IMG/VR virus record: IMGVR_UViG_3300046315_000035 | DNA from: a virus | Lineage: Duplodnaviria > Heunggongvirae > Uroviricota > Caudoviricetes | Reading direction: 5' to 3' (one strand) | Length of the DNA stretch: 64,000 nucleotides | Notes under the pieces: generated by a model | What the model was told of the DNA's origin: nothing | Databases searched by the model: none | The model's input: the letters and a program-made list of their open reading frames with translations, nothing else | Part shown: positions 1 through 26,182 of the stretch, in pieces | Layout of the letters: every line of letters starts with the position of its first letter | How positions within the stretch are numbered: position 1 is the first letter of the stretch | Made by a program: the position numbers and the translations under genes

Positions 1-1
1 T

Positions 2-424
2 TCTGTAAATCAAACTGCTCCTAGTATAAACACTCCACATAACGTGCATTTTCAAAATACAGATATTGCAAGTGGAATAAGAATAGTAGATCAAAATAAA
101 ATAACTATAGATAATGCAGGTCTTTATTCTTTTGATTTTAGGTTGCAGTTAACATCTTCAAATTCCTCCCAAAAAGAAATATACATTTGGGCTAGAAAAA
201 ATGGAGTAGATGTTCCACGAAGTACTTCAAAAGTTACTTTGTCAGGTAATGGAGTTGAGTTAGTACCATCTTGGAGTTTTTCACTTAGTATGCAAATTGG
301 TGACTATTTTGAATTAATGTATGCTGTAAGTGATTTGGCTATTACAATAAACGCTCCCAATGGTGTATCTTTTGCACCGTCTACACCTTCTGCTACGTTA
401 CGTGTAAGTCAGATTAACTTATAA
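2..424 (+). CDS. tail fibre / receptor-binding protein, C-terminal part (5' end outside window)
   Basis: The reading frame is open from the window edge and the listed M at 44 is a GTG. It is Ser/Thr/Asn-rich and sits next to the tail-fibre genes. Confidence 0.45.
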   Translation, partial: SVNQTAPSINTPHNVHFQNTDIASGIRIVDQNKITIDNAGLYSFDFRLQLTSSNSSQKEIYIWARKNGVDVPRSTSKVTLSGNGVELVPSWSFSLSMQIGDYFELMYAVSDLAITINAPNGVSFAPSTPSATLRVSQINL

Positions 425-436
425 TAGGAATAATAA

Positions 437-793
437 ATGCAACCAGCACACATTGATTTGGAAGTCTACAAAGGTTCAACTTTTGTAAAAATTATCCAAT
501 GGAAAACAGGCATTCCAACAGCAGCGGTTAATCTTACTGGTTGTACTGCTAGAATGCAAATTAGAAAAGCTGTAAACGATACTGCAGTTTTAGATACTCT
601 TACTACAGAGAACGGTAAAATTGTAATTCACGAACCTTTAAATGGTAAGTTTAAAATTGTAATTCCAGCGACTACCTCTACTTCTTATACTTTCACAAGT
701 GCAGTATATGACTTAGAGATTATTTTTGCTGATCAAACAGTTACCAGAGTAATTGAAGGTTGTTTAACTGCAGCACCAGAGGTGACACGATGA
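437..793 (+). CDS. hypothetical protein in tail-fibre cluster
   Basis: ATG preceded by AGGAA; no recognisable motif. Confidence 0.45.
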   Translation: MQPAHIDLEVYKGSTFVKIIQWKTGIPTAAVNLTGCTARMQIRKAVNDTAVLDTLTTENGKIVIHEPLNGKFKIVIPATTSTSYTFTSAVYDLEIIFADQTVTRVIEGCLTAAPEVTR

Positions 794-1068
794 CAACAAA
801 CGTTATTGTAGAAACACAGTATGACACAATAATTGTAGATGATTCACAAGATACTATTCTAGTTGAAACTCCCGGTGAAGTTACAGTAATTACTTCTGCA
901 GAACAAGGACCACCCGGACCTGCTGGTATTCAAAATATTAGCGATGCTTCTGATGTAGATTCTTCAAATAAGATCAATGGTTCAGTATTAGTTTATTCTA
1001 GTCAAAATCAAAAATGGGTTGCAACTACCCAACTCGAAAACCAGAATGTTGAATCTGGACATTATTAA
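790..1068 (+). CDS. hypothetical protein with collagen-like GPPGPAG motif
   Basis: ATG at 790 overlaps the upstream stop (ATGA). The product contains the short collagen-like motif GPPGPAG. Confidence 0.45.
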   Translation: MTTNVIVETQYDTIIVDDSQDTILVETPGEVTVITSAEQGPPGPAGIQNISDASDVDSSNKINGSVLVYSSQNQKWVATTQLENQNVESGHY

Positions 1069-1081
1069 TTAAGGAAAAATT

Positions 1082-3364
1082 ATGGCTTCTATTGTAAGAA
1101 TCAAACGTTCAGAAACTGGTGGTAATCCAGCTACACTTGGACAAGGTGAATTAGCTTACTCAGCATTACCGGATAACGGCTCAAACGGTGGTGATCGCTT
1201 ATACGTAGGCATGGGTACTGAAACTTCAGGTAATGCAGTTAACCACGTAGTCATCGGTGGTAAATACTTCACTGATAAATTAGATCACACTCCCGGTACT
1301 GTTACCCCTTCCTCTGCAATTATTGTAGACAGTAACGGTAAGATTGATAACCTCAAAGTAGACAATATTGAAATTGATGGTAATACGATCAGTTCAACAA
1401 ATGCAAATGGTAACGTAAACATTGCACCAAACGGTTCAGGTTCCGTTGTTCTAGATGGTCAGTCTTGGCCTCAAACATCCGGTTCTACTGGACAGTATCT
1501 AAAGACAGATGGTTCTGGTCAAACTGCATGGAGTACACTACCTCCTAGTGATTTTACTATTCAAGGTGATTCAGGTAGCGATTTATTCAGTACTGGTGAT
1601 ACGCTTATCTTTTCAGGTACAGACGCAATTGATACTGTAGTAACTGATAATGAAGTTACAATCTCTGTAAAAGATGCAAGTAATACTCAAAAGGGTGTTG
1701 CAAGTTTTAACACTACAGACTTCTCTGTAACAGGTGGTGCTGTAAGTATCAATCACGAAGCTATTCAAGATTTAGTCGGTGGAATGCTCAGTTCTAACGT
1801 AGAAACTGGTATTGCTGTTACTTATGATGATACAAATGGTAAGATTGATTTTGCAGTAAATAACCCTGTAATTACTATTTCTGGTGACGTAGACGGTACT
1901 GCTACGATGACCAACTTGGGTAACACAACCATTGCTGTTACACTAGACACAGTTAACGCAAACACTGGTAGCTTTGGTTCTTCAAGTTCAGTTCCAGTTA
2001 TTACTGTAAATGCTAAAGGTTTAGTTACTGCTGTATCAACCGCAGGTATCTCAACTTCATTTACAATCGCTGCAGATTCTGGTACTCCTGATGTATTTAA
2101 TAACGGTGAAACGTTATCTATTGTGGGTGGTGAAGGTATTGATACTACTGTCAGTGGTTCAACTAATACAATTACAATTTCTGCTGAAAATGCATCAGAT
2201 ACTAATAAAGGTGTAGCTACTTTTAATGCAGCTAACTTCTTAGTAACTTCTGGTGATGTTGTCATCAAAGATGCAGGTGTTACAAATGCAAAGTTGGTAA
2301 ACTCCAGTGTAACCGTAGGCACTTCTAACGTAGCACTTGGTGCAACGATTACTTCCTTAGCTGGTTTAACCGAAGTTCAAGTTGATAATTTAAACCTCAA
2401 TGGTAACTCTTTAACTGCAACCGATGTAAACGGTAGCATAGTGCTTGTTCCTAATGGTAACGGTGTAGTTGATGTTTCAGATTCTCGTATTACTGGTGTT
2501 GCTGAACCTGTCAATGCAACAGACGCAGCTAACAAAGCTTACGTAGATAATGCTGTTACTGGTCTAAGTTTTAAAGAAGCTGTTAATCTTTTTGCTAATA
2601 CAAATATTGCACTAACAGGTAGCACTTCAACATTAGTTATTGATGGTCATTCTGCTTTAGATCAAACTGACAATGGTTATCGCATTTTACTTACTGCACA
2701 AACAACAAGTTCTCAAAATGGTATTTATGTTTACGCTGATAATGGCACAACTTATACATTATCACGTACTGCTGATGCTGATGCTTACACTGAACTCGAT
2801 GGTGCTTCAGTATTCGTTGTAGAAGGTGCTACATATGCCAATACAGGTTGGGTACAAACTAACCACTATCTAACTAGCTTTGCAGGTCAGACTTGGGTTC
2901 AATTCTCAGGTTCTGGTGCATATGTAGCTGGTGAAGGTTTAACACTAACTGGTACAACTTTCGATGTAGGTGCTGGTGCTGGTATTAGCGTAACTGCTAA
3001 CGCTGTGGCTCTTGCTGATTCAGTTGCAGGTGCAGGTCTTACATTTAATGCAGGTGTAGTAAACGCAGTTGGTACTTCAAATAGAATCAGTGTAAGCGCA
3101 GATGCAATCGACATTGCTTCTACATATGTAGGTCAAACAAGTATTACTACATTGGGTACAGTTTCAACAGGTACATGGTCTGCTAATACAATTGCTACTA
3201 CCAAGGGTGGTACAGGCTTGACAACTTATGCAACTGGTGATATACTGTATGCTAACGGTTCAAATAGTTTAGCTAAATTGACTATTGGAACCAGTGGTAA
3301 AGTATTACAAGTAAACGGTAGCGGTGTTCCAGTTTGGGCCGATATTGATGGTGGTACTTACTAA
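1082..3364 (+). CDS. tail fibre protein (760 aa)
   Basis: RBS AAGGAA. Long Gly/Thr/Ser/Asn-rich beta-type sequence with an internal duplicated segment (SNTQKGVASFNTTDFSVTGG / SDTNKGVATFNAANFLVTSG). Confidence 0.7.
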   Translation: MASIVRIKRSETGGNPATLGQGELAYSALPDNGSNGGDRLYVGMGTETSGNAVNHVVIGGKYFTDKLDHTPGTVTPSSAIIVDSNGKIDNLKVDNIEIDGNTISSTNANGNVNIAPNGSGSVVLDGQSWPQTSGSTGQYLKTDGSGQTAWSTLPPSDFTIQGDSGSDLFSTGDTLIFSGTDAIDTVVTDNEVTISVKDASNTQKGVASFNTTDFSVTGGAVSINHEAIQDLVGGMLSSNVETGIAVTYDDTNGKIDFAVNNPVITISGDVDGTATMTNLGNTTIAVTLDTVNANTGSFGSSSSVPVITVNAKGLVTAVSTAGISTSFTIAADSGTPDVFNNGETLSIVGGEGIDTTVSGSTNTITISAENASDTNKGVATFNAANFLVTSGDVVIKDAGVTNAKLVNSSVTVGTSNVALGATITSLAGLTEVQVDNLNLNGNSLTATDVNGSIVLVPNGNGVVDVSDSRITGVAEPVNATDAANKAYVDNAVTGLSFKEAVNLFANTNIALTGSTSTLVIDGHSALDQTDNGYRILLTAQTTSSQNGIYVYADNGTTYTLSRTADADAYTELDGASVFVVEGATYANTGWVQTNHYLTSFAGQTWVQFSGSGAYVAGEGLTLTGTTFDVGAGAGISVTANAVALADSVAGAGLTFNAGVVNAVGTSNRISVSADAIDIASTYVGQTSITTLGTVSTGTWSANTIATTKGGTGLTTYATGDILYANGSNSLAKLTIGTSGKVLQVNGSGVPVWADIDGGTY

Positions 3365-3380
3365 TCAGTTAGTGATCAAT

Positions 3381-3408
3381 GGGCGGTTTTTACCGCCCTT
3401 TTCTTTTC
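3381..3408 (+). terminator. rho-independent terminator
   Basis: Stem gggcggt / accgccc (7 bp) with a tttt loop, followed by ttttcttttc. Confidence 0.6.
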
Positions 3409-3427
3409 CCTTTGTTAAGGATTGCAC

Positions 3428-4633
3428 ATGGCAAGTAAGATTATATTAAAGAAGTCATCGGTAGCTGCTAAAGCTCCTGTAGCTGGTGATTTAGATTTTG
3501 GCGAATTAGCTATTAACTATACAGACAGTAAGTTATATTTTAAGAAAGCTGATGGTTCAATTGACGCTTTTTCAAGTGCAGCAGCTTCTGCTCCTGTTAG
3601 TTCAGTAGCTGGTTACACAGGTGCTGTAACTGCAACAAATTTACTAGACGCAATTAAAACTGTAGATGGTGCAGGTAGCGGTTTAGACGCAGATACTTTA
3701 GATGGTTTATCTTCAGCTTCTTTTTACTTAGCAAGCAACCCTAACGGTTATACAAGTAATTTAGGTACAGTAACTAGCGTAGGTGCTACATCTCCTGTTG
3801 TCTCTTCTGGTGGCACTACTCCTACGATCTCTATGCCAGCGGCTACTGCTAGTGCAAACGGTTATATGACTGCTGCATATGCGAGTAAATTAGATGGTGT
3901 TGCTGCAGGTGCTACAAACGTAACCAATACCAATCAGTTAACTAACGGCGCAGGGTATATTACTAGTACTGGCTCTATCAGTGGTAATGCTGCTACTTCT
4001 TCACAAAGTTATCAAAACACCAATCCTACTTCTAGTACTTATCGTATTTTACTTGGTAATGGTACTAATAGTAACGGACCAGTCTATAATTATTCAGCTT
4101 TATATTGGAATAATGCTACCGCTACTATTGAGGGTGCAAACATTAGTGGTAATGCGGTAACTGTGACACACCCTTTTCCATCGGGAACCAGACTCCCTTT
4201 TGCTCAAGCAAGTGCTCCTGTAGGTTGGGTACAAGATACTAGTGACAACGCAAATAATCGTATGTTAAGGGTTGTAAATACTGCAGGAAACGGTGTTGGA
4301 GGTTCTAGTGATCCTATTCTGAATAATGTTGTACCATCACACACGCATGGATTCTCAACAGGCACTCAATCAGCAAACCATAACCACGGAATTTCAGACC
4401 CAACACACCGACATGATATTCGTTTACACTGGACAGCCGCTAGTGCTCCCGGTCAACTTTCTGGTCGTGAAAACAACTTTGCTGCGACAAGGGTGTCAGA
4501 GTATGCTTCAACTGGTATTTCCACCGGAACAAATAGTGTAAGTCACACACACTCTGGTACAACGGATAATGGATCAAGTCAAACAAGTTGGACACCAAGA
4601 TATATTAACATGATTATTTGTACGAAAGGTTAA
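3428..4633 (+). CDS. tail fibre protein with His-rich (HxH) C-terminal tip
   Basis: ATG at 3428. Gly/Thr/Ser-rich body; the C-terminus carries HTHGF, NHNHG, THRHD and SHTHSG motifs resembling the metal-binding HxH motifs of T4 fibre tips. Confidence 0.6.
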   Translation: MASKIILKKSSVAAKAPVAGDLDFGELAINYTDSKLYFKKADGSIDAFSSAAASAPVSSVAGYTGAVTATNLLDAIKTVDGAGSGLDADTLDGLSSASFYLASNPNGYTSNLGTVTSVGATSPVVSSGGTTPTISMPAATASANGYMTAAYASKLDGVAAGATNVTNTNQLTNGAGYITSTGSISGNAATSSQSYQNTNPTSSTYRILLGNGTNSNGPVYNYSALYWNNATATIEGANISGNAVTVTHPFPSGTRLPFAQASAPVGWVQDTSDNANNRMLRVVNTAGNGVGGSSDPILNNVVPSHTHGFSTGTQSANHNHGISDPTHRHDIRLHWTAASAPGQLSGRENNFAATRVSEYASTGISTGTNSVSHTHSGTTDNGSSQTSWTPRYINMIICTKG

Positions 4634-4636
4634 ACA

Positions 4637-4882
4637 ATGACAAATCAACAAACGGTTAAGGGTTACCAGTGGGGAGATGATTTATCTTATATTGGAGAAT
4701 ACGAGTTTCCTATTCCTCCTAATGGTGTTCCACATTTACCACCAAAAACAACATTAGTACCTCCACCTGAAGTTCCCGATGGTTACGAGGCAGCAATTGA
4801 TTTGGACTCTGGTAAATGGATAATCAGACCAGAAGATTTATCTTGGATGACCAATCCAAAAAATCTAGCACCGGGAGTTTGA
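4637..4882 (+). CDS. hypothetical Pro-rich protein
   Basis: ATG with AAAGG RBS; no recognisable domain. Confidence 0.4.
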   Translation: MTNQQTVKGYQWGDDLSYIGEYEFPIPPNGVPHLPPKTTLVPPPEVPDGYEAAIDLDSGKWIIRPEDLSWMTNPKNLAPGV

Positions 4883-4883
4883 T

Positions 4884-5189
4884 ATGGATATTAAAGCTAA
4901 ATTAAGTTGTCCTCTGGGCTCAAAATGTGAAGAAATTAAAGATAACACCATGTATCGTTGTGCTTGGTTTATCCAATTGGCGGGTACTAATCCAAACACA
5001 GGTGAATCTGTAGATGAGAGAGGTTGTGCAATGGCGTGGATTCCAATTCTTACGATAGAAAATTCAGCTCAACAACGTAGCACTGCATCTGCAATTGAAT
5101 CTTTTAGAAATGAAGTAGTTGCAACTTCTTCTGTACCAATTCTGTTTACAAATTATCCTAAAATAAATACACCAATTATTAATAACTAA
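4884..5189 (+). CDS. hypothetical protein
   Basis: ORF tightly packed between its neighbours. Confidence 0.4.
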   Translation: MDIKAKLSCPLGSKCEEIKDNTMYRCAWFIQLAGTNPNTGESVDERGCAMAWIPILTIENSAQQRSTASAIESFRNEVVATSSVPILFTNYPKINTPIINN

Positions 5190-5191
5190 CT

Positions 5192-6679
5192 ATGAAAAAA
5201 ATAGCCATTGTTGGAGGTGGTACAGCAGGTTGGATGGCAGCCTTGTTGTTACAAAAACGCCACCCTGAAAAAGATATCATGTTGATCGAAAGCTCTGAGA
5301 TAGGTATACTTGGAGCAGGAGAAGGTACAACTCCGCATTTTTTTGATTTTCTTAGAGATGTGGATATTGCTGTTGAAGAGTTGATTAAAAATTGCGGAGC
5401 TACTTTTAAATTGGGTATTTCATTTGAAAACTGGAGCGATACTCCACAAAAATACACTCACAGTTTTTTAAACGCCCCCTCTTTGTGTTTACTGGATGCT
5501 CGTTGGACGCATCTGGTTCAAGATGAAATATCTAACAAGCGAAATTTGGATGAGTTAAATTTCAATGCAAAATGTATAAGTGAAAGAAAGCTACCACTTA
5601 TCTATGGAAATTATCCTGATGCTAAAAAATCATCTGAAGCTTACGATGAACTTGGTGTTTTTGGTTTGCATTTTAATGCTCAACTTTTAGCTACTGAGTT
5701 AAGAAAAGTTGCTGTCTCTCGTGGTGTAAAAAGAATTGATACAAAAGTTACTGGTTTTATCCAAGATGAACAAGGAAATGTGATATTTATAAAGACATCT
5801 GATTTTGATATCCCTGTTGACTTTGTTTTTGATTGTACAGGTTTTTCTAGAATGATTATCGGAAAGTTATATAATACACCTTGGAACAGTTATAGTGATT
5901 TTTTACCAATGAAAAGTGCAATTCCGTTTTTTATTAAGCACGATGATAATATAGAACCTTGCACAAAAGCTGTAGCAATGAAACATGGATGGGTTTGGCA
6001 AATACCTGTACAGGGGCGATATGGCATGGGTTATGTGTTCGATTCTGATTACATTACTGCAGATCAAGCTTTGCAAGAGGTTCGTCAAGTGTATGGTGAG
6101 AATGTAGAGTCAACAAGAGAGTTTAAATTTTCAGCGGGTTGTTTTACAGAAACATGTGTAAATAATGTTGTTGCTGCTGGTATATCTCAAGGATTTGTAG
6201 AACCATTAGAAGCAACATCTCTTTGGGTAACATATCTAACGATAAAAGATGCCCTTGATGAAAAAATTATTGACACCCCATCAAGCGAAGCCACTGATAG
6301 AATTAATATAAACTTTAGACAAAGAACAGACGAAATTGCAAATTTTATTTACGCGCATTATTTGACTAACCGTAAAGATTCTCTATTTTGGACTGAATTT
6401 GAAAAGAAAAATAAACCACCAGAAAAGTTTCAGCAATTTGTGGATGAAATTCGCAAGGATGTAACTTTGGCAGATTCATCCTTAACTTTTGGAGCTTATA
6501 GTTGGATGCTTGTTTTACAAGGTATTGGTAAAAAAATAAACATACCTTCTAATAATCAGGCACTAACCTCTGTAACAAAAAATATGTTTGTTGAAAATCA
6601 AGCTAGAATTTTGCAACAATGTTTGCCTCATGATCAGGTGCTAAGAGATTTTGGTGCTAAACTTTCCAGCTTCAATTAA
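5192..6679 (+). CDS. FAD-dependent halogenase (tryptophan-halogenase family)
   Basis: N-terminal IAIVGGGTAGWMAALLL matches the GGGTAGW signature of PrnA/RebH-type halogenases. The internal HGWVWQIPV matches their WxWxIP motif. Confidence 0.75.
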   Translation: MKKIAIVGGGTAGWMAALLLQKRHPEKDIMLIESSEIGILGAGEGTTPHFFDFLRDVDIAVEELIKNCGATFKLGISFENWSDTPQKYTHSFLNAPSLCLLDARWTHLVQDEISNKRNLDELNFNAKCISERKLPLIYGNYPDAKKSSEAYDELGVFGLHFNAQLLATELRKVAVSRGVKRIDTKVTGFIQDEQGNVIFIKTSDFDIPVDFVFDCTGFSRMIIGKLYNTPWNSYSDFLPMKSAIPFFIKHDDNIEPCTKAVAMKHGWVWQIPVQGRYGMGYVFDSDYITADQALQEVRQVYGENVESTREFKFSAGCFTETCVNNVVAAGISQGFVEPLEATSLWVTYLTIKDALDEKIIDTPSSEATDRININFRQRTDEIANFIYAHYLTNRKDSLFWTEFEKKNKPPEKFQQFVDEIRKDVTLADSSLTFGAYSWMLVLQGIGKKINIPSNNQALTSVTKNMFVENQARILQQCLPHDQVLRDFGAKLSSFN

Positions 6680-6685
6680 TAATTT

Positions 6686-7111
6686 ATGAAAGGTCATAAT
6701 ATGAAATTTATGATTAATGTACCAGATGGTATGGTGGCGATAGATGGTAAAAAAACATCTGAAGTATCAATGGAAGGTATTCACCCTAACATACTTAAAA
6801 TCCATTGGTATGGTTCTTTCGGTGATGAGCATTTTTCAGACAACGATACGGTTAAAGTCCGTAGATTTTTTGATATAACACCTTATATTCCAATTCTAGA
6901 AACTGCAGAAGAATTAATTACAGAGGAACTAAACGCAAGTGAACCCGTCATTACTTATGTAGAATTAAGGGCTGCAGAATATCCCGATGTTAGAGATTAC
7001 TTAGATGGAATTGTTAAGGGAGATCAGATGCAAATTGATGCTTATATCGAAAAATGTCGTCAGATAAAACTTAAATATCCTAAACCAGAATCAAAGTTGA
7101 TTGACATCTGA
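6686..7111 (+). CDS. hypothetical protein (start may be ATG 6701)
   Basis: Lies 6 nt downstream of the halogenase gene; no recognisable motif. Confidence 0.45.
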   Translation: MKGHNMKFMINVPDGMVAIDGKKTSEVSMEGIHPNILKIHWYGSFGDEHFSDNDTVKVRRFFDITPYIPILETAEELITEELNASEPVITYVELRAAEYPDVRDYLDGIVKGDQMQIDAYIEKCRQIKLKYPKPESKLIDI

Positions 7112-7233
7112 CAACTAAGCAATACTTTAAATCAAATACATATGTGAATAACTCATTCTTGAATATTTAAAGGTTCAATAACTATTGTTCCCTTTAGAAA
7201 AATATACTTTATACCAACTTTTTATTATTGTAC

Positions 7234-7262
7234 TTGATTTTCTAATAATCTTATGGTATAAT
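7234..7262 (+). promoter_or_regulatory. sigma70-like promoter, TTGATT-17-TGgTATAAT
   Basis: -35 TTGATT at 7234-7239, a 17-bp spacer, and an extended -10 TGGTATAAT at 7254-7262. Confidence 0.5.
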
Positions 7263-7293: not shown

Positions 7294-8088
7294 ATGGAAA
7301 CAATTAATAAAGCTAAAAGTTTTGCTCCCACAGATGCAATGCGAAATAATGCTAGAAGAGGTTTAGCACTACGAGAGAAATACAATCGTGGTGGACTAGA
7401 TGCTTCACAAGCTAAATCAGAAGGTGTAGGTTCCGGTGTAGCTAGAGCAAGAGATATCATTAATGGTAATCTGAGCTTAGATACAGTCAAGCGAATGTAT
7501 GCTTTCTTTAGTAGACACGAAAAGAATTACAATCCTAAGAAGAAAATGCCTGATGGTGGACCTACTGCTGGTACTATCGCTTGGTTACTTTGGGGTGGTT
7601 CTGCTGGTTTAGCTTTTGCTAGACGAGTCTTAAAACAAGAAGACATTCTAAAGAGCTATATTAAAGAGATTACCGATACTGAAGTTAATTCAGAGGATAT
7701 CTTACCGGGAGTTAAACTACCCGTTACAAAAGCAGTTGATGAAGAATTAAAGCAAGCTACTTTTATCGTAATGGTTCCAGAAGAAGTTGATGCACACGGT
7801 GATGTAACCAGTGAAGCTGAAGTTCGTAAGGCTTGCCATAACTTTAATAAATACAGCATGAAAGCTAATCTATTTCACTTAGTTGAAACCGATACTTTTG
7901 AGTTCTGTGAAAGCTACTGCTGCCCTAGCGATTTTGTGCTAGGTGATAAATTTGTAAAAAAGGGTACTTGGTTAGCAACTATTCAATCCTTAGATGATAA
8001 TCTTTGGGAATTAATCAAGTCTGGTGAAATCAATGGTTTGAGTATTGGTGCGTTAGCATCTGTCGAATCAATCGAAGAGGATGAATAA
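7294..8088 (+). CDS. hypothetical head-module protein
   Basis: First gene after the promoter, upstream of the scaffold, decoration and capsid genes. Start set at ATG 7294 because its SD spacing is better than for ATG 7288. Confidence 0.4.
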   Translation: METINKAKSFAPTDAMRNNARRGLALREKYNRGGLDASQAKSEGVGSGVARARDIINGNLSLDTVKRMYAFFSRHEKNYNPKKKMPDGGPTAGTIAWLLWGGSAGLAFARRVLKQEDILKSYIKEITDTEVNSEDILPGVKLPVTKAVDEELKQATFIVMVPEEVDAHGDVTSEAEVRKACHNFNKYSMKANLFHLVETDTFEFCESYCCPSDFVLGDKFVKKGTWLATIQSLDDNLWELIKSGEINGLSIGALASVESIEEDE

Positions 8089-9317
8089 TGGCAACACAAC
8101 GAAAAGCTAAAAGAAAGCTATCTGATATCAGTTTTGAAAAAGATGGTGCTCACGTAGCTCTTACATCTAAGTCTCAAGGTGGTCCTGCTAATACACACGA
8201 TTATGCACTCGTACTAAAAGCTAATAAGTTTAGCGAAGAGTTTGTACAAAAGATGCAACAAGTTCGTGTAACTATGGAACTACCTGATTTTCTACGTAAG
8301 TTCTTCTCAGTATATTACGAAGATGCAGAAGTTCTAGCTCGTATGATGGGTTATGAGAAGCCTGAGCCAGAAGTACAGGAAGTCGAAGCACCTAAAGATT
8401 ACTACGAAGATTACATTCAATCTAAGTTAGAAGCTTTTGAAGTTTTAAAATCTGCTAATGATGCAGAAGCTCTTTCTGAAGTTCTGTCTGAGTTAGATGA
8501 AACAGAATACCTTGCAATGCTCAATGATCAAGCTCTGATTGAAAAAGCATTTGAAGAACTAGAAAAAGCATATAAGCCTAAAGTTGGTGACATTGTAGCA
8601 TGGAATTCCAGCGGCGGTAAGGCAACAGGCAAAGTTACCAAGATCGTAACTGATGGTAAAATGCAAGTTCCCGACACAGAATTTACTTTGAATGGCACTG
8701 AACAAAATCCTGCCGTTATGATTAAGTTATACAGAGATGGTGAACCTACTGATACAATGGTTGGTCACAAAGCGGGTACTCTTAGTAAAGTACAAAAGTC
8801 TCTAACACAAGAATCTGAACCTGCTGCTCTTGCAGACGGTAATGATACCTCAACAAACGCTGGCGTTGAGAATATTGAAGGGGTGTCTACCTCTGTTAAC
8901 AAAGAAGAATTGGAGAAATCTAAGATGGAAGACGAAGTAAAAGTCGAAACCGTTGAGAAAGCTCAGTTTGAACTTGTGCAAAAAGCTCTAGACGAGCAAA
9001 AGGTACAACTACAAAAAGCTCTCGAAACAATCGCTGCATTTGAAGCTGCTCAAAAAGAAGCTATCAATAAAGCAAAAACTGAAAAAGTTAAAGCTATCGT
9101 GAAAGACGAAAGCAAGGTAGAAGCAATCGCTAAGGCTGCTCTATCACTAGAATCCGAAGATGATTTTACTGCCTTCCTAGATGCTATGCAATCTATGGTA
9201 GCAACTGTAGATGCATCTGAGATGTTCGTAGAAAAGGGTGCTTCTACTCAAGAAGAACCTGCTGTTAAAGAATCTGCTGTGGCAAAATTACTTAAAGCCA
9301 AGCAAGTAACTAAGTAA
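8088..9317 (+). CDS. head scaffolding-like protein
   Basis: Acidic, Glu/Lys/Ala-rich, predicted coiled-coil protein located immediately before the decoration and major capsid genes. Confidence 0.5.
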   Translation: MATQRKAKRKLSDISFEKDGAHVALTSKSQGGPANTHDYALVLKANKFSEEFVQKMQQVRVTMELPDFLRKFFSVYYEDAEVLARMMGYEKPEPEVQEVEAPKDYYEDYIQSKLEAFEVLKSANDAEALSEVLSELDETEYLAMLNDQALIEKAFEELEKAYKPKVGDIVAWNSSGGKATGKVTKIVTDGKMQVPDTEFTLNGTEQNPAVMIKLYRDGEPTDTMVGHKAGTLSKVQKSLTQESEPAALADGNDTSTNAGVENIEGVSTSVNKEELEKSKMEDEVKVETVEKAQFELVQKALDEQKVQLQKALETIAAFEAAQKEAINKAKTEKVKAIVKDESKVEAIAKAALSLESEDDFTAFLDAMQSMVATVDASEMFVEKGASTQEEPAVKESAVAKLLKAKQVTK

Positions 9318-9686: not shown

Positions 9687-10700
9687 ATGCAAACTCGTAG
9701 TTTTGAAAAACCATTTGAACTAGTCGATTACACAGAAGAACTACTCTTAGTTCCTAATAAGTGGGGCTTGATCAATGAATTAGGTCTATTCGGTGAAGAA
9801 GGCGTAGCTCAACACAGCGTTACCGTTGAATCCAGCGAAGGTACTCTCGGTCTAGTTACCGATAAGGTCCGTGGTGAGCGCAATAACGTAGCTAAGAGCG
9901 ATACTCGTGCTCTACGTTCATTCCCTATCCCGCACTTCCCAATGGATGACGCTGTTAAGCCAGAAGATGTCCAAGGTAAACGTGCTTACGGTTCCGCTGA
10001 TCAAGCCGAAACTGAAGCTGCTGTTATCGCTCGTAAGCTAGAGCGTATCCGTATGAACCACTCAGTAACTCTAGAAGCTGCTCGTGCCTTCGCAATTACT
10101 GCTGGTGCTATCTACGCTCCTAACGGCACTGTATCTGGTAACTTCTACACAGACTTTGGTATCACACGTAAGTCAATCGACTTCGTACTAGGTACTACTA
10201 CTACTGACCTAAACGCTAAGTCAGAAGAAGGTATTGCTCACATTCAAGACACCATCCAAAGCGGTGAAGTCGTTAGCAACATCATCGTACTTTGCTCACC
10301 TGCTTTCTTCGGCAAGTTGATCAATCACGCTACTGTTAAAGAAGCTTACAAGTATTACTCTAGCACTCAAGAGCCACTACGTAACCGTCTAGGTTCCGGT
10401 GTATATCGCCGTTTCGTACACGGTGGTGTTGAGTACATCGAATACCGTGGTTCTTACAACGGTACTGCTCTAATCCCTGCTGGTGAAGCTTACATGCTAC
10501 CACAAGGTACTGCTGACATGTTCAAGACCTATTTTAGCCCTGCTAACAAGTTCAGCCATGTTAACACAATTGGTGAGCAAGCCTATGTCTTTACCTACAA
10601 AGACCCCAAGGATAGCGAAATCCAAATTCAATCTGAAGCAAACTTCTTGAACCTAATCCGTAGACCTCAAGCTGTTGTTCAATTGACAACTTCTAACTAA
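9687..10700 (+). CDS. major capsid protein (lambda gpE-like, 337 aa)
   Basis: Size and position after the scaffold and decoration genes, strong RBS TAAGGAA, and high-expression codon usage. Confidence 0.7.
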   Translation: MQTRSFEKPFELVDYTEELLLVPNKWGLINELGLFGEEGVAQHSVTVESSEGTLGLVTDKVRGERNNVAKSDTRALRSFPIPHFPMDDAVKPEDVQGKRAYGSADQAETEAAVIARKLERIRMNHSVTLEAARAFAITAGAIYAPNGTVSGNFYTDFGITRKSIDFVLGTTTTDLNAKSEEGIAHIQDTIQSGEVVSNIIVLCSPAFFGKLINHATVKEAYKYYSSTQEPLRNRLGSGVYRRFVHGGVEYIEYRGSYNGTALIPAGEAYMLPQGTADMFKTYFSPANKFSHVNTIGEQAYVFTYKDPKDSEIQIQSEANFLNLIRRPQAVVQLTTSN

Positions 10701-10717
10701 TCATTAGATAATTAGAT

Positions 10718-10733
10718 TGCCTCTTCGGAGGCA
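10718..10733 (+). other. stable RNA hairpin with UUCG tetraloop (tgcctc-ttcg-gaggca)
   Basis: 6-bp stem closing a UUCG loop and no U-tract, so it is not a canonical terminator. Confidence 0.4.
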
Positions 10734-10875
10734 TCTAACATTAGTCTTGCGTTGTAACAAATCTTATGTTATAATTCAAGATTAATGTTAGATAAATTAG
10801 CTAGGCTGATCCCCGAAAAGAACTACTATCCACAGTTCCTGCTAATATATTTTAGTGGAAATTTCGGGAGAAATT

Positions 10876-11400
10876 ATGTATAAAATATGTGGAAAATGTA
10901 AACAAGAGAAATTGTTTTCAGAGTTTTTTAGAGATAATTCCAAGATAGACGGTTTTCGTACAGATTGTAAAGTTTGTAGAAAAGAATACCAGAGAGTTTG
11001 GAGAGAATTAAATAAACAAACTGTTGCAACATATATGCAGGATTGGTATGTTGAAAATAGAGAATCAGTTTTAAGTTATAGAGAATTAAATAAAGATAAA
11101 ATCTCAAATTATTATAAAAAGAATAGACATAAATATAATTCTCATGCAGCAAAAAGAAGAGCTTCTAAATTAAATGCCACACCTAAATGGTTAACAACTG
11201 GAGATATTGATTCAATTCAGTATCTATATAACTTAGCTAAACAATTAGAATTAAAATTTAACATATCTTATCATGTAGATCACATTGTGCCTCTTATCAG
11301 TGATAAAGTTTGTGGTCTACATGTGCCGTGGAATCTTCAAGTTATTCCTGCAAAAGAAAATTTAACTAAATCAAATAAATTACAGGAAGATACAGTATGA
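10876..11400 (+). CDS. HNH homing endonuclease with N-terminal CxxC..CKxC zinc module
   Basis: C-terminal HVDHIVPLISDKVCGLHVPWNLQVIPAKENLTKSNK is an HNH motif. The N-terminus carries YKICGKCK..CKVCRK. ATG at 10876 has a GGGAGA RBS. Confidence 0.7.
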   Translation: MYKICGKCKQEKLFSEFFRDNSKIDGFRTDCKVCRKEYQRVWRELNKQTVATYMQDWYVENRESVLSYRELNKDKISNYYKKNRHKYNSHAAKRRASKLNATPKWLTTGDIDSIQYLYNLAKQLELKFNISYHVDHIVPLISDKVCGLHVPWNLQVIPAKENLTKSNKLQEDTV

Positions 11401-11801
11401 CAATTCATGCAATAAGAATCGAACTTGGCGACACATCACCTGAATTTCCAATTATGAGTGATGAAGAATATAATTATTTTTTGAGTAAACATGATTGGAA
11501 TATTCGCAGAGCTGCAATGGATGCTGCTAAATCAATAATGCTCAAGCTTTCAATGCGTACTGATGAGACAGTTGATATTTTTTCAATTAAAGGTTCTAGT
11601 GCTGCTAAAAATTATATGTCAGCTTTGCAATTATTTATCAAGAATCCTGATCTAAATGCTCTTTATGACAAAGTGCAAGGTTATGCTGGTGGTATCTCAA
11701 AAGCAGATATGCAAGCCAATGATGCTAACTTAGATAACAACATCGTAAAAGACCCACAAGCTGAAACTTTTACTTACCGCCCTAGTTCATTCGGTATTTA
11801 A
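11397..11801 (+). CDS. hypothetical protein (head-tail connector region)
   Basis: ATGA overlap with the upstream gene; lies between the capsid and tail modules. Confidence 0.4.
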   Translation: MTIHAIRIELGDTSPEFPIMSDEEYNYFLSKHDWNIRRAAMDAAKSIMLKLSMRTDETVDIFSIKGSSAAKNYMSALQLFIKNPDLNALYDKVQGYAGGISKADMQANDANLDNNIVKDPQAETFTYRPSSFGI

Positions 11802-11815
11802 CCTAGAGGAATATT

Positions 11816-12172
11816 ATGGATAAGTACTTAGCAATAGTTCTAAAATCAATCAATACTCACGGTAAAGCTTGCAACTATTTTGTAGTTACTGAAGGTTCTT
11901 ATAATATTGAAACAGGTAGTACAACCAACACAGAAACATCATATTCTGTTAAGATGTATAAAAAGCACATTAGAGCAAGTCAGTATAATTTCCCAAATAT
12001 GATTGGTAGAGATTCTGCTTTGTTTTACCTAGCTAATAATAAACTAAGTTTTGTACCTAAAGTAAAAGATAAAATCTCTATTGATGATGTTGTATATACT
12101 GTAGAGTCGATTACAGAGCATTCTGCAGATGGTCTTGTTATTTTATACAAGATACTAACTGTAAAAGGTTAA
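11816..12172 (+). CDS. hypothetical head-tail adaptor-like protein
   Basis: Placement by position only. Confidence 0.35.
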   Translation: MDKYLAIVLKSINTHGKACNYFVVTEGSYNIETGSTTNTETSYSVKMYKKHIRASQYNFPNMIGRDSALFYLANNKLSFVPKVKDKISIDDVVYTVESITEHSADGLVILYKILTVKG

Positions 12173-12174
12173 TC

Positions 12175-12666
12175 ATGCAAGTTACATGCGATACTTCAAA
12201 ATTAGAACAAAGCTTAAAGAAGTTCCATGAAGAAGCTGTTCGTAAAATGCAAGGTATGGTGCAAAAGTTTTCATACATAGTTGCATGGACAGCTATTGAT
12301 AATACACCTCTTGGTGACTCCATCAAGTGGTTGAATCTGTATGAAAAGCGATTTGAAGAAATAGGTCTGGAACCAATCGAAGGTTTTGCAAAAGGTTCTT
12401 GGCGTGTGTCAATGGACGGTACATTAGAAATGCAAACCTTATATGGTACAGATTCTGATGAAATGGCAGCATCATTAATTAAACAAGACTTGAACCAATA
12501 CAAACTTGGTCAAACTGTAATGATCAGTAACTTTGGTCCTTATATTGTAGAGTTAGAGAAAAACTTTGACAAATATGGTAAAGGTCAACCCATCATACAA
12601 CCAACATTAGCTTCTATTTATAGAACATATCAGTTGAGTTTAGATGACTATTATAAGGCAAGCTAA
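12175..12666 (+). CDS. hypothetical neck / head-tail joining protein
   Basis: Placement by position only. Confidence 0.35.
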   Translation: MQVTCDTSKLEQSLKKFHEEAVRKMQGMVQKFSYIVAWTAIDNTPLGDSIKWLNLYEKRFEEIGLEPIEGFAKGSWRVSMDGTLEMQTLYGTDSDEMAASLIKQDLNQYKLGQTVMISNFGPYIVELEKNFDKYGKGQPIIQPTLASIYRTYQLSLDDYYKAS

Positions 12667-13073
12667 TGGCAATTATAGAAATTAAAAGAGCAGCCGAACG
12701 TAAACTAAATGCATTAACTCCTGTTGTATCTACTGCATGGGAAGGTGTTACTTTTGAACCTCCTGTTGGATTATACCAACGAGTTCAGTTTACGATTCAA
12801 ACTCCAGATGATCCTGTGCTTGGTACAGGTTTTCACAGAGAGCGCATGACACTACAAGTATTTGTTGTAGGTGCTGCAAACAAAGGAACTTCAGAAGTCA
12901 TAAATCGTGCTGAACTGATTCGTAATCATTTTGCAAAAGGTTTAGTATTACAAGAAGGTAACGTAAAGATTCATGTGTTAAAAACGCCACAAATTGCTGG
13001 TAACACTGTTGTATCTGAAAGAGTAATCTGTCCAGTTCTAATTGAATTAGTAGCTGAAGTTTATTCTTATTGA
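12666..13073 (+). CDS. hypothetical tail completion protein
   Basis: ATGG overlap with the upstream gene; the last gene before the major tail protein. Confidence 0.35.
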   Translation: MAIIEIKRAAERKLNALTPVVSTAWEGVTFEPPVGLYQRVQFTIQTPDDPVLGTGFHRERMTLQVFVVGAANKGTSEVINRAELIRNHFAKGLVLQEGNVKIHVLKTPQIAGNTVVSERVICPVLIELVAEVYSY

Positions 13074-13137
13074 ATCATGGTTGCTGAACCTAAATCAGTA
13101 CATTTGCAAATGTGAAATTTAAATTAAGGAAATTATT

Positions 13138-24992: not shown

Positions 24993-25832
24993 ATGGCTAA
25001 TCATTTACAGCCTACAATTACAAGTACTTATGCTAACTTTGTAACTGAAATGGATGCGAGATTTGATGATCTAGCAGTGGGGCTTGACCCCGCTGTTACT
25101 ACAGCAACTAACGTTCCTACAAATTCAATCAGGTGGTCCGGTGCTTCTAATAAATGGCAAAAATACAACGGTTCAGCATGGAATGATTTAGCAGCTACTT
25201 ATGCAATTGCTATCTCAGGTAATGCTGGTACTGTTACAAACGGTGTCTACACCAATGCAACTTATGCAAATCCTGCGTTTATTACTTCTTTAGCTGGTTC
25301 TAAAATAACTGGTGATATTGGTGGTAATGCAGGAAGTGCTACTCAGTTAGCTACTAGTAGAAACATCAACGGTGTACCTTTTAATGGTAGTGCTGCTATT
25401 AGTGTTAACTTAAACAATGGTGTTACTTTTAACAATGCTGGTACTGGTTCAGGTTCAGGTGCTTCTTTTACTGGTGGATCAGCAGTTACTGTTAGTTATA
25501 ACACCATTGGAGCACCTAGTACTTCTGGAGTAGGAGCTACAGGTAGTTGGGGTATTAGTATTAGCGGTAACGCTGCTACAGTGACTAACGGTGTTTATAA
25601 TAATGGTGGTACTTATGGTATTAACATTACTGGTAATGCAGCTACAGCTACCAACGCAACTAGTGCAACTAGTGCAAGCAGTGCAACTTCTGCTACTAAT
25701 GCGACTAATTCTACAAGACTTATAACCACAAATTGGATTGTAGAAGAATCTGCGGGTGTTTTACAAATTAAAACATCTGGTGGTACTTTAAAGTTTGCTA
25801 TGGACACAGCAAATGGTTTTACTGTTTATTAA
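24993..25832 (+). CDS. tail fibre-like protein with Gly/Asn/Thr repeats
   Basis: Repeated SGNAGTVTNGVY and GNAATATNATSATSA units. Confidence 0.5.
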   Translation: MANHLQPTITSTYANFVTEMDARFDDLAVGLDPAVTTATNVPTNSIRWSGASNKWQKYNGSAWNDLAATYAIAISGNAGTVTNGVYTNATYANPAFITSLAGSKITGDIGGNAGSATQLATSRNINGVPFNGSAAISVNLNNGVTFNNAGTGSGSGASFTGGSAVTVSYNTIGAPSTSGVGATGSWGISISGNAATVTNGVYNNGGTYGINITGNAATATNATSATSASSATSATNATNSTRLITTNWIVEESAGVLQIKTSGGTLKFAMDTANGFTVY

Positions 25833-25850
25833 ATTTAAAGGAGGTTACTC

Positions 25851-26171: not shown

Positions 26172-26182
26172 AAGGATAAAAT

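What the first reader, a model, noticed from the sequence alone, without database searches (positions are those of the whole stretch)
5192..7111. Flavin-dependent (tryptophan-type) halogenase gene inside the virion structural module
A 495-aa ORF carries both diagnostic motifs of PrnA/RebH-type FAD-dependent halogenases, GGGTAGW near the N-terminus and WxWxIP (HGWVWQIPV). It sits between the tail-fibre genes and the head genes and is followed by an unknown 141-aa gene. No flavin reductase partner is recognisable nearby. A halogenase in a late virion operon of a lambda-like siphovirus is an unusual cargo, and its substrate is unknown; it could act on a host metabolite, a cell-surface component or a virion protein. 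As far as I know such genes have been reported in a few marine phages, but not in this context.
Basis: partly seen in the sequence, partly recalled or inferred. Interest (0 to 1): 0.7.

Follow-up and report, generated by a model that had tools for sequence, protein, structure and literature searches.

The report
Halogenase built into tail-fibre cassette
A freshwater phage carries an intact flavin-dependent halogenase gene, a kind already known from many phages, but here it lies inside a portable tail-fibre-tip gene cassette that recurs in several unrelated phages, which hints at a role in host recognition.

Summary
ORF 5192-6679 (495 aa) is a clear PF04820 flavin-dependent halogenase (E 8e-101). 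It has GGGTAGW, WVWQIP, the catalytic Lys (K73 = RebH K79) and the catalytic Glu (E340 = RebH E357). The 141-aa ORF follows it, and no flavin reductase is found in the 64 kb window.

Some of the interpretation needs correcting:
- Phage halogenases are common: 78 phage records, PHROG 2928, and the characterised VirX1.
- Pelagiphage HTVC008M already has one inside its structural module.
- This enzyme lacks the Trp4 motif of free-tryptophan halogenases, so it groups with the "indole-type" enzymes (BrvH, VirX1).
- The host genome is a 78-kb relative of Limnohabitans phage DC31, not a lambda-like phage.

The new point is the context. The gene is the fourth part of a tightly packed cassette: HxH fibre-tip domain, 81 aa, 101 aa with four Cys, halogenase, 141 aa. 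This cassette replaces 3.65 kb of the DC31 backbone. It recurs in the same order in eight distinct loci with at least four different flanking contexts (GC 37-56%, halogenase 60-94% identical). None of 242 more distant halogenase loci has these neighbours. The 101-aa and 141-aa families normally sit next to tail-fibre genes without a halogenase.

The substrate is unknown. I favour a role tied to adsorption (about 45%) over a hitch-hiking metabolic gene (about 35%).

The parts
3381..3398 (+). Terminator-like hairpin (GGGCGG-TTTT-TACCGCCC followed by a T run) between the first fibre gene and the cassette; probable left transcriptional boundary
   Evidence: The total number of terminator-like sites equals the shuffle expectation, so this is suggestive only.
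3422..4633 (+). Tail-fibre gene (403 aa). The first ~52 aa form a backbone-specific anchor shared with DC31. The last ~150 aa (nt ~4181-4633) form an HxH-rich tip domain that belongs to the cassette.
   Evidence: PHROG tail-fibre hits. Weak Gp10_C hit, E 0.006. N-terminal 52 aa are 69% identical to DC31, and the tip is 66-82% identical to tips in the other halogenase loci.
4418..4471 (+). Distal loop of the fibre tip (aa 333-350, IRLHWTAASAPGQLSGRE, with W337). It is conserved in all five halogenase-linked tips compared and absent from 44 halogenase-less tips. Speculative candidate target.
   Evidence: A clade-specific feature, not proof of modification.
4637..4882 (+). 81-aa protein, 68-88% identical across cassettes. 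Weakly resembles tail-fibre assembly proteins.
   Evidence: phrog_7290 'tail fiber assembly protein' at E 0.012 only.
4884..5189 (+). 101-aa protein with four conserved Cys: a small beta domain followed by a long helix. It belongs to a large family that sits directly downstream of HxH fibre tips.
5192..6679 (+). Flavin-dependent halogenase (495 aa). GGGTAGW at nt 5213-5233, catalytic K73 at nt 5408-5410, WVWQIP within nt 5984-6010, catalytic E340 at nt 6209-6211.
6686..7111 (+). 141-aa protein: an N-terminal beta domain plus a C-terminal helical domain. The helical domain is shared with more than 7,400 proteins of ~89 aa that lie just downstream of tail-fibre genes. The close full-length subfamily was next to a halogenase in every context checked.
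   Evidence: Contexts. Its pairwise identities track those of the halogenase (rho 0.76 over 10 non-independent pairs).
7234..7262 (+). Promoter-like site (TTGATT-17-TATAAT with TG) in the 176-nt AT-rich spacer ahead of the head protease gene. Collinearity with DC31 resumes at 7224.
3575..7223 (+). Segment replaced relative to Limnohabitans phage DC31: fibre shaft and tip, 81 aa, 101 aa, halogenase, 141 aa.
   Evidence: blastn collinearity: window 1-3574 and 7224 onward match DC31, and nothing in between does.

Best explanation
ORF 5192-6679 encodes a catalytically competent two-component flavin-dependent halogenase. It belongs to a branch of PF04820 seen here only in viral and unclassified metagenomic sequences.

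Chemistry (established for the family, inferred here). FADH2 from a host flavin reductase reacts with O2 and halide to give hypohalous acid. Lys73 passes this on, and the enzyme halogenates an electron-rich aromatic carbon held near Glu340, His90 and Phe92. The substrate is not free L-tryptophan.

Gene organisation (shown). The gene is not a free-standing moron. It is the fourth member of a five-part, tightly packed cassette: HxH fibre-tip domain, 81 aa, 101 aa, halogenase, 141 aa. The cassette is exchanged as a unit between unrelated phages. Here it replaces 3.65 kb of the DC31-type backbone downstream of the conserved fibre anchor. From the gene packing and the absence of an internal promoter or terminator stronger than chance, I infer that it is co-transcribed with the late fibre genes.

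Committed inference, about 45%. The enzyme is a host-range or adsorption accessory. Its target would be part of the cassette (the fibre tip or one of the small partner proteins) or be tied to the receptor that this tip recognises. That would explain why it is never separated from this tip type. The enzyme identity and the cassette are shown. Expression timing, the reductase source and the target are inferred.
For: Enzyme:
- Pfam 8e-101, PHROG 2928, and solved homologues at e-40 to e-58.
- K73 and E340 align to RebH K79 and E357.
- GxGxxG, WxWxIP, K, E, H90 and F92 are invariant in the eight closest proteins. WxWxIP, the Lys motif and EPLE are kept in all eight loci, and GxGxxG in seven; L412's called ORF is N-terminally short.

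Cassette:
- The order fibre tip, ~81, ~101, halogenase, ~130-141 recurs in the window, L005, L007, L326, L406, L410 and L412; L411 is cut upstream and shows only 103 aa, halogenase, 129 aa.
- Across these loci GC is 37-56% and the halogenases are 60-94% identical.
- Upstream fibre parts and backbones differ: ERF/NinB lambdoid, SU10-adaptor type, and DC31 type.
- Most junctions are 4-nt start/stop overlaps. In the window the gaps are 1-6 nt.
- No homologue of the fibre tip, the 81-, 101- or 141-aa proteins lies beside any of 242 more distant halogenase loci.

The flanking families are fibre partners in their own right:
- 101-like genes directly follow HxH tips in most of 69 IMG/VR loci, none with a halogenase.
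- 141-like genes follow tail-fibre genes.
- In L061 and L065 a 101-like and a 141-like gene are adjacent with nothing between them. So the halogenase sits between two fibre-accessory genes.

Other support:
- Halogenase-linked tips share a distal loop with an invariant Trp that 44 other tips lack.
- Enzymes of this fold can act on protein Trp. QhpG, LodB and GoxB gave weak hits (see PMC7876137). SrpI brominates Trp in peptides and proteins (PMC10286304).
Against: - Conserved order inside a mobile cassette can reflect common descent rather than function. Five of the eight loci share a related downstream fibre gene, so only about four contexts are independent.
- The clade is nested among viral halogenases that sit in metabolic-gene islands with no fibre genes. 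The ancestral role was therefore probably unrelated to fibres.
- The region next to tail-fibre genes is a known landing site for cargo (established knowledge on phage morons).
- No natural PF04820 enzyme is known to modify a folded structural protein.
- H90 and F92 fit a small indole-like ligand equally well.
- The clade-specific loop is what any closely related subgroup would show.
- The halogenase/141 identity correlation rests on 10 non-independent pairs.
- The promoter and terminator scans are at chance level.
Confidence: 0.45

Rival explanations
1. Hitch-hiking metabolic cargo. The halogenase acts on a soluble, electron-rich aromatic metabolite in the infected cell (indole-like, phenolic or heterocyclic), as is assumed for VirX1 and other viral halogenases. 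It stays with the fibre cassette only because the cassette is the unit of horizontal exchange.
For: - The closest relatives outside the clade are viral halogenases in auxiliary-gene islands: PhoH, 2OG oxygenases, NT5C in L011; DNA polymerase B and GTP cyclohydrolase I in L013.
- The NJ tree nests the clade among such sequences, together with HTVC008M.
- The motif pattern matches group C enzymes, and those tested accept small indoles or heterocycles.
- HTVC008M shows that such a gene can sit inside a structural module with no evident structural role.
Against: - Synteny is strict in 8 of 8 loci, despite 35-40% protein divergence and a GC shift from 37% to 56%.
- There is no own promoter or terminator, and start/stop codons overlap those of both neighbours. 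This is unlike classical morons.
- No example of the same cassette without the halogenase was found.
Confidence: 0.35
2. Receptor-matched host modification, in the manner of T5 llp next to its receptor-binding gene or lambdoid cor. The enzyme would alter a cell-envelope precursor so that infected or lysed cells no longer trap progeny or admit superinfecting phages that use the same receptor. That would explain the linkage to one tip type.
For: - The halogenase is linked perfectly to one fibre-tip loop type.
- Receptor-blocking genes placed next to receptor-binding genes are an established pattern (my own knowledge of T5 llp/oad and cor, not checked here).
Against: - Flavin-dependent halogenases need FADH2 and therefore work in the cytoplasm.
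- Their known substrates are aromatic or enolisable carbons, not sugars or lipids.
- No signal peptide or membrane segment was noticed in the halogenase or its neighbours on reading the sequences; this was not tested with a predictor.
- The idea is speculative and has no precedent.
Confidence: 0.1
3. The protein has lost catalysis and serves as a structural or chaperone-like component of the fibre apparatus, an enzyme fold put to a new use.
For: Its position between two fibre-accessory genes.
Against: Every catalytic and cofactor motif is invariant across the clade at 60-94% overall identity. That argues for retained enzymatic function.
Confidence: 0.05

Closest known systems
VirX1 (cyanophage Syn10 flavin-dependent halogenase, PDB 6QGM)
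   Same: A phage-encoded PF04820 enzyme with a catalytic Lys and Glu, no Trp4 motif, no phage-encoded reductase and an unknown natural substrate.
   Different: Only ~30% identical, and on a different branch of the NJ tree. VirX1 lies in a T4-like myovirus next to a second halogenase paralogue, and none of its annotated neighbours is called a fibre gene. Halide preference here is untested.
Pelagibacter phage HTVC008M 'tryptophan halogenase' (AGE60413)
   Same: The closest homologue in an isolated phage (40-41% identity). It falls in the same viral clade and also lies inside a virion/packaging module.
   Different: It sits between the terS and terL genes beside a phytanoyl-CoA dioxygenase, not among fibre genes. 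None of the 81-, 101- or 141-aa partners is present.
BrvH / Xcc-b100 / Shewanella 2PYX-type 'indole' halogenases (group C of PMC8269204)
   Same: Similar length of about 500 aa. Trp1- and Trp2-like motifs without Trp4. PDB matches at e-45 to e-46.
   Different: These are cellular enzymes. The best cellular relatives found are only 29-35% identical.
PrnA / RebH / PyrH / Thal free-tryptophan halogenases
   Same: Same fold, cofactor motifs and catalytic Lys and Glu.
   Different: There is no Trp4 motif (YY...): the window has LTFGAYSW where PyrH-type enzymes have YYHGFxxYS. There is also no biosynthetic cluster and no partner reductase.
Flavoenzymes of this fold that modify peptides or proteins (SrpI, MibH; QhpG, LodB, GoxB)
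   Same: They show that this fold can act on Trp residues in peptides or proteins (PMC10286304, PMC10858898, PMC7876137). QhpG, LodB and GoxB gave weak NCBIfam hits.
   Different: Those hits are far below the family cut-offs (38 against 240 bits). No leader peptide or RiPP machinery is present here. Action on a protein is only a hypothesis.
Tail-fibre tip plus assembly-protein cassettes (for example lambda stf-tfa, Mu/P2 fibre-tfa)
   Same: A conserved N-terminal fibre anchor with a swapped distal part, plus small downstream accessory genes exchanged as a unit (general phage knowledge).
   Different: To my knowledge no such cassette has been described with an oxidoreductase or halogenase inside it. 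A full-text search for halogenase + phage + tail fiber returned nothing of the kind.

Membership tests
Flavin-dependent halogenase (Pfam PF04820 Trp_halogenase) | Profile score above the curated cut-off over the full domain | tested here: met
   338.5 bits against 21, residues 3-446 of 495.
Flavin-dependent halogenase (Pfam PF04820 Trp_halogenase) | GxGxxG dinucleotide-binding motif at the N-terminus | tested here: met
   GGGTAGW at residues 8-14; invariant in the clade.
Flavin-dependent halogenase (Pfam PF04820 Trp_halogenase) | WxWxIP motif | tested here: met
   WVWQIP at residues 267-272; present in all eight loci.
Flavin-dependent halogenase (Pfam PF04820 Trp_halogenase) | Catalytic Lys (PrnA/RebH K79) and Glu (PrnA E346 / RebH E357) | tested here: met
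   K73 aligns to RebH chain K99 (native K79) and E340 to chain E377 (native E357). Both are invariant.
Flavin-dependent halogenase (Pfam PF04820 Trp_halogenase) | FADH2-, O2- and halide-dependent halogenation of a substrate | not testable with these tools
   Needs enzyme assays.
Free L-tryptophan halogenases (PrnA, RebH, PyrH, Thal) | Trp1 and Trp2 substrate motifs (e.g. ATIPNL / HSFGL) | tested here: inconclusive
   The window has GTTPHF and HSFLN. These are analogous but match no regioselectivity group in Table 1 of PMC8269204.
Free L-tryptophan halogenases (PrnA, RebH, PyrH, Thal) | Trp4 motif (YY..., binds the amino-acid moiety of Trp) | tested here: not met
   The aligned segment reads SSLTFGAYSW. 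Alignments to RebH end before its Trp4 region.
Free L-tryptophan halogenases (PrnA, RebH, PyrH, Thal) | Placement in a secondary-metabolite cluster with a partner flavin reductase | tested here: not met
   No Flavin_Reduct or biosynthetic genes among the ORFs scanned in the 64-kb window.
Viral flavin-dependent halogenases (PHROG 2928; VirX1-like) | Match to the phage family profile and location on a phage genome | tested here: met
   phrog_2928 at 7.6e-100. The backbone is collinear with Limnohabitans phage DC31.
Viral flavin-dependent halogenases (PHROG 2928; VirX1-like) | Closer to viral than to cellular homologues | tested here: met
   Viral and metagenomic relatives are 37-45% identical, cellular ones 29-35%. 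In the NJ tree the clade lies among IMG/VR viral and unclassified metagenomic sequences with no cellular ones. The tree is rough, with no support values.
Viral flavin-dependent halogenases (PHROG 2928; VirX1-like) | Preference for iodide and a broad substrate range (the VirX1 property) | not testable with these tools
   Needs assays.
Moron / independent auxiliary metabolic gene | Own promoter and terminator, flanking intergenic gaps, patchy presence among close relatives | tested here: not met
   Gaps of 2 and 6 nt in the window and 4-nt overlaps in other loci. No promoter or terminator signal above chance flanks the gene. It is present in every locus that carries this tip type.
Tail-fibre accessory / assembly proteins (for the 81-, 101- and 141-aa genes) | Position immediately downstream of receptor-binding fibre genes across many phages | tested here: met
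   The 101 family follows HxH tips in most of 69 loci. The 141 family follows fibre genes.
Tail-fibre accessory / assembly proteins (for the 81-, 101- and 141-aa genes) | Sequence or fold homology to a characterised fibre chaperone | tested here: inconclusive

The most novel reading that the evidence does not exclude
The halogenase modifies a virion or assembly protein after translation. The candidates are the invariant Trp of the clade-specific distal loop of the fibre tip (W337 in IRLHWTAASAPGQLSGRE) or a Trp in the 81-, 101- or 141-aa partner proteins. In that case halogenation would tune receptor binding or fibre maturation. It would be the first enzymatic halogenation of a phage structural protein, and a new way to diversify host range.
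Probability: 0.22. Interest if true: 0.9.

Novelty: new variant of a known kind. Interest (0 to 1): 0.55.

Why it matters
Phage halogenases have been known since 2005, yet none has a known natural substrate or a known benefit to the phage. Most sit in miscellaneous gene islands that give no clue. This clade is different: the gene is locked into a receptor-binding cassette that moves between unrelated phages. That gives a concrete, testable hypothesis about what a viral halogenase does, namely halogenation linked to adsorption. It also provides a short list of candidate protein substrates encoded right next to it.

If the hypothesis is wrong, the locus still has value. It shows a metabolic-type enzyme being carried by tail-fibre exchange. 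It also defines two very large, uncharacterised families of small proteins that accompany phage fibre genes.

Tried and rejected
- A single-protein scan of IMG/VR for the halogenase found nothing. The alignment-based scan found only relatives at 43% identity or less.
- The genome scan of 185,579 species found no prophage copy of the cassette. The best cellular relatives are 29-35% identical.
- Pfam, NCBIfam and PHROGs give no function for the 81-, 101- and 141-aa proteins.
- I considered that the 141-aa protein might be the missing flavin reductase. I rejected this: no Flavin_Reduct hit, a beta-plus-helical fold with no flavodoxin-like match, and a C-terminal domain that is a common fibre-adjacent module.
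- I considered ThyX (53104-53772), a flavoenzyme, as a source of reduced flavin. There is no evidence that it releases FADH2.
- I did not model the halogenase itself, because family membership was already unambiguous and coordinates cannot be inspected here.
- Co-divergence of the cassette genes was tested on five loci. Only halogenase against 141 correlates (rho 0.76), and the pairs are not independent.
- Promoter and terminator scans are at chance level overall.
- dN/dS was not attempted, because synonymous sites are saturated at this divergence.
Full report
**1. The observation**

The window has a 495-aa ORF at 5192-6679 (+) followed by a 141-aa ORF at 6686-7111. GGGTAGW lies at residues 8-14 and HGWVWQIPV at residues 265-273.

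The family assignment is unambiguous:
- Pfam PF04820 Trp_halogenase scores E 8.1e-101 (338.5 bits, cut-off 21) over residues 3-446.
- PHROG 2928 'tryptophan halogenase' scores 7.6e-100.
- Thirty solved PF04820-type halogenases match at 1e-40 to 8e-58. They include RebH, PrnA, PyrH-type, Thal, BrvH, the Xanthomonas enzymes and the phage enzyme VirX1.

In the printed RebH alignment, query K73 pairs with chain residue K99 and query E340 with chain residue E377. The crystallised RebH chain is 550 residues, against 530 for the native protein (my own knowledge), which I read as a 20-residue tag. These positions are therefore native K79 and E357, the catalytic pair, equivalent to PrnA K79 and E346. 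Both residues, the two motifs, and H90 and F92 (the RebH H109 and F111 positions that stack on the indole) are invariant in the eight closest proteins. This is a real halogenase-type enzyme, not a generic FAD fold.

**2. What kind of halogenase**

Table 1 of PMC8269204 lists four substrate motifs for true tryptophan halogenases. It shows that 'group C' enzymes (BrvH, VirX1, MibH, KrmI, the Xcc enzymes and marine metagenome enzymes) keep Trp1- and Trp2-like motifs but have no Trp4 motif.

The window protein has GTTPHF at the Trp1 position and HSFLN at Trp2. Where PyrH-type enzymes have YYHGFxxYS, it has SSLTFGAYSW. Alignments to RebH stop before the RebH Trp4 segment. So it fits group C and is unlikely to use free L-tryptophan.

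By sequence identity, its nearest relatives are:

| Relatives | Identity |
|---|---|
| Small clade P0002-P0008 | 60-65% |
| Large set of metagenomic and IMG/VR viral proteins | 37-45% |
| Pelagibacter phage HTVC008M (closest isolate) | 40-41% |
| Cellular proteins across 185,579 species genomes (Massilia, Glaciecola, Pelomonas, Alteromonas, Sphingomonas and others) | 29-35% |

I built a rough neighbour-joining tree of 102 sequences. It places the clade as a monophyletic group among IMG/VR viral and unclassified metagenomic sequences with no cellular ones, together with HTVC008M. That branch is separate from the cellular branches and from the Syn10 (VirX1) branch. The tree has no support values.

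**3. The genome it sits in**

The head genes are 86-98% identical in protein to Limnohabitans phage DC31. The window is collinear with DC31 over 1-3574 and from 7224 onward. DC31 is a 76.2-kb, 37.6% GC, long-tailed phage from a freshwater lake (PMC12195039). The window has 37% GC, and the exact protein occurs on a 77.9-kb JGI contig.

Pfam finds a lambda-E-type capsid protein, a Phage_tube_2 tail tube protein, a tail terminator and a tail assembly chaperone. It also finds RNR, thioredoxin, ThyX, dCMP deaminase, primase-helicase, ligases and endonuclease VII. This is a siphovirus-type phage with its own replication module, not a lambdoid.

No Flavin_Reduct or similar reductase was found among the ORFs scanned. 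This is not an obstacle, because family members work with generic host reductases (established knowledge).

**4. The cassette**

DC31 has no halogenase. Window 3575-7223 is a replacement that begins just after the conserved N-terminal ~52 residues of the 403-aa fibre protein.

I looked up where the closest halogenases are encoded. The same gene order appeared each time:
1. the C-terminal ~150 residues of a fibre protein, rich in HxH motifs (weak Gp10_C similarity);
2. an ~81-aa gene;
3. a ~101-aa gene;
4. the halogenase;
5. a ~130-141-aa gene.

Seven of the eight sequence-distinct loci show this full order; L411 is cut upstream and shows only the 101-like gene, the halogenase and the 129-aa gene. 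The loci are:
- the window;
- L005, a 39.5-kb contig with ERF, NinB, a GTA-type holin and an M15 peptidase;
- L007/L008/L009, with SU10-type adaptor genes;
- L326/L010, a 56% GC contig with fibre genes on both sides;
- L406/L407;
- L410;
- L411;
- L412/L413

. Their GC ranges from 37% to 56% and their halogenases are 60-94% identical. WxWxIP, the Lys motif and EPLE are kept in all eight, and GxGxxG in seven (L412's called ORF is N-terminally short).

The upstream fibre parts differ in length (284-808 aa) and in sequence. Five of the loci share a related downstream fibre gene, so I count about four independent flanking contexts.

The genes are packed with 1-6-nt gaps in the window and 4-nt start/stop overlaps in most other loci. 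A terminator-like hairpin (3381-3398) precedes the cassette. A promoter-like site (7234-7262) follows it, in the 176-nt spacer before the head genes. The scan totals are at chance level, however.

**5. What the neighbours are**

*The 101-aa protein.*
- It has four conserved Cys. The model is confident (pLDDT 89.8): a small beta domain followed by a long helix.
- It has no Pfam, PHROG or NCBIfam match and no fold neighbour.
- The family is large: 954 representative clusters at E <= 1e-3.
- A homologue of the HxH fibre tip was detected in 61 of 69 IMG/VR loci, usually ending within ~10 nt of the 101-like gene. An 81-like gene lies in between in 14 of them.
- None of the 69 has a halogenase.
- Isolated phages carry the family too, always annotated as hypothetical. 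Examples are Ralstonia phage PY059YO380, Roseobacter phage CRP-361 and P-SSM2.

*The 141-aa protein.*
- It has an N-terminal beta domain and a C-terminal helical domain (pLDDT 85.5).
- The helical domain carries the motif YPD.RDYLDG.VKGDQ.Q.D.YI..C..VK.KYPK. More than 7,400 proteins of ~89 aa share it.
- In sampled loci those proteins lie just downstream of genes that PHROGs calls tail fibre or tail proteins. Limnohabitans phage DC33 is one example.
- A distant full-length homologue follows a Gp10_C-type fibre with no halogenase (L405).
- In L061 and L065 a 101-like and a 141-like gene are directly adjacent.

Both flanking families are therefore fibre-tip partners in their own right, and the halogenase sits between them. 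In the other direction, none of 242 more distant halogenase loci (83 + 159) has any of the four neighbours. Their contexts are auxiliary-gene islands of large viruses.

The close full-length 141 subfamily was next to a halogenase in all seven contexts examined. I found no example of this tip type without the halogenase.

**6. Other pointers**

Halogenase-linked tips share a distal loop, (I/V)x(L/I/V)HW(T/G)xA(S/V)APGQ(L/I)SGRE, at window residues 333-350 with W337. This region is hypervariable in 44 halogenase-less tips, and none of them has that HW. A shared loop is expected for any close subgroup, so it is a lead and not evidence.

Pairwise identities of the halogenase track those of the 141-aa protein (rho 0.76). 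They do not track those of the tip. The test has only 10 non-independent pairs.

NCBIfam gives weak sub-threshold hits to QhpG, LodB and GoxB, flavoenzymes of this fold that modify protein-bound Trp (PMC7876137). SrpI brominates Trp in peptides and proteins (PMC10286304; PMC10858898). So action on a protein would have precedent in the superfamily.

**7. Explanation**

*Shown:* an intact, conserved flavin-dependent halogenase of the viral group C type, and its fixed place in a portable fibre-tip cassette.

*Inferred from family knowledge:* FADH2 from a host reductase reacts with O2 and halide to give HOX. Lys73 relays it, and an aromatic carbon is halogenated by electrophilic substitution with help from Glu340. 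Expression would be late, with the fibre genes.

*The target is unknown.* I put:
- about 45% on a role tied to adsorption. About half of that is direct halogenation of a cassette protein. The rest is a receptor-matched or otherwise host-range-linked role.
- about 35% on a hitch-hiking enzyme that acts on a soluble aromatic metabolite;
- about 5% on a non-catalytic role;
- the remainder on something else.

The receptor-matched idea is also listed separately among the rival explanations at about 10%, so that share overlaps the 45%.

For coupling to adsorption:
- Synteny is strict despite deep divergence and a large GC shift.
- The start and stop codons overlap those of both neighbours.
- The gene has no promoter or terminator of its own.
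- No halogenase-less version of the cassette was found.

Against it:
- Descent within a viral clade that otherwise has nothing to do with fibres.
- The known tendency of cargo genes to settle next to fibre genes.
- The small number of independent contexts.

**8. Comparison and novelty**

Phage halogenases have been reported since P-SSM2 in 2005, where the gene was thought non-functional (PMC1079782). They are counted among conserved cyanomyovirus genes (PMC2984593) and found in 20 of 153 cyanophages (PMC10452541). One is characterised as the iodinase VirX1 (PMC8407142). HTVC008M carries one between its terminase genes.

The gene as such is therefore a new member of a known kind. Its presence in a late module is not unique.

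What I could not find described is a halogenase embedded in a tail-fibre-tip cassette and co-inherited with it. A full-text search for halogenase + phage + tail fiber gave eight papers, none on this. The DC31 paper does not mention halogenases. I therefore rate it a new variant of a known kind, of moderate interest. The interest would be high if the protein-modification reading proves true.

Noticed in passing
window 4884-5189 and loci L017-L085: A very large, unannotated family of ~100-aa proteins with four conserved Cys (beta domain plus long helix, pLDDT 89.8). It lies directly downstream of HxH-type tail-fibre tips: 954 representative clusters and 69 IMG/VR loci. It also occurs in Ralstonia phage PY059YO380, Roseobacter phage CRP-361 and P-SSM2. 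It has no Pfam, PHROG or NCBIfam model and no fold neighbour. It is probably a fibre-tip partner or chaperone.
   Followed up: partly
window 6686-7111; loci L166-L245; L326 1622-1891: The C-terminal ~50-residue motif YPD.RDYLDG.VKGDQ.Q.D.YI..C..VK.KYPK defines a family of more than 7,400 small proteins of ~89 aa. In sampled loci they sit right after tail-fibre genes of several different tip types (W.ELR endings, Gly-rich, collar/HxH). PHROGs 2687 and 9114 list the family as function unknown.
   Followed up: partly
window 10855-11400 and 54075-54689: Two paralogous HNH-type endonuclease-like genes, 44% identical. The first is an insertion relative to DC31, lying between the major capsid gene and the next head gene: collinearity breaks at 10795 and resumes at 11389. 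It is likely a mobile homing endonuclease.
   Followed up: partly
window 1-4633 versus 24993-26443: The phage has two separate sets of fibre-like genes. One is in the usual place, after the 1743-aa distal tail protein. The other lies between the packaging/portal region (outside the window; by analogy with DC31 gene order, unannotated there) and the head protease, an unusual position shared with DC31.
   Followed up: no
L002 ~10600-13554 (DC31 record 1-2970): DC31 has about 3 kb with no ORF of 80 aa or more and no annotation, at the position that corresponds to the cassette junction. After it comes a 400-aa protein that resembles a fibre or tailspike by eye. This junction appears to be a variable receptor-binding region in this phage group.
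   Followed up: no
window 53104-53772, 28443-31254, 27790-28032, 50473-50913: A nucleotide-metabolism set: ThyX (flavin-dependent thymidylate synthase), class I RNR large and small subunits, thioredoxin and dCMP deaminase. ThyX is the only other flavoenzyme found in the window.
   Followed up: no
window 8088-9317: The scaffold-like protein after the head protease contains an Hva1_TUDOR domain (E 1e-7). This is unusual for a scaffold.
   Followed up: no
window 47061-47861: An SPFH/Band 7 domain protein encoded in the early or replication region on the minus strand.
   Followed up: no
L013-L015 (context of P0017): A 43%-identical halogenase lies in a viral island with GTP cyclohydrolase I, UDP-glucose dehydrogenase-like and DUF6071 genes, next to a family B DNA polymerase. 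A link between viral halogenases and deazapurine or nucleotide-sugar chemistry could be worth examining.
   Followed up: no
L409 1482-4587 (cyanophage Syn10): Syn10 carries two adjacent halogenase paralogues of 507 and 530 aa. The 530-aa gene is annotated only as 'hypothetical protein', although it is the better match to the query.
   Followed up: no
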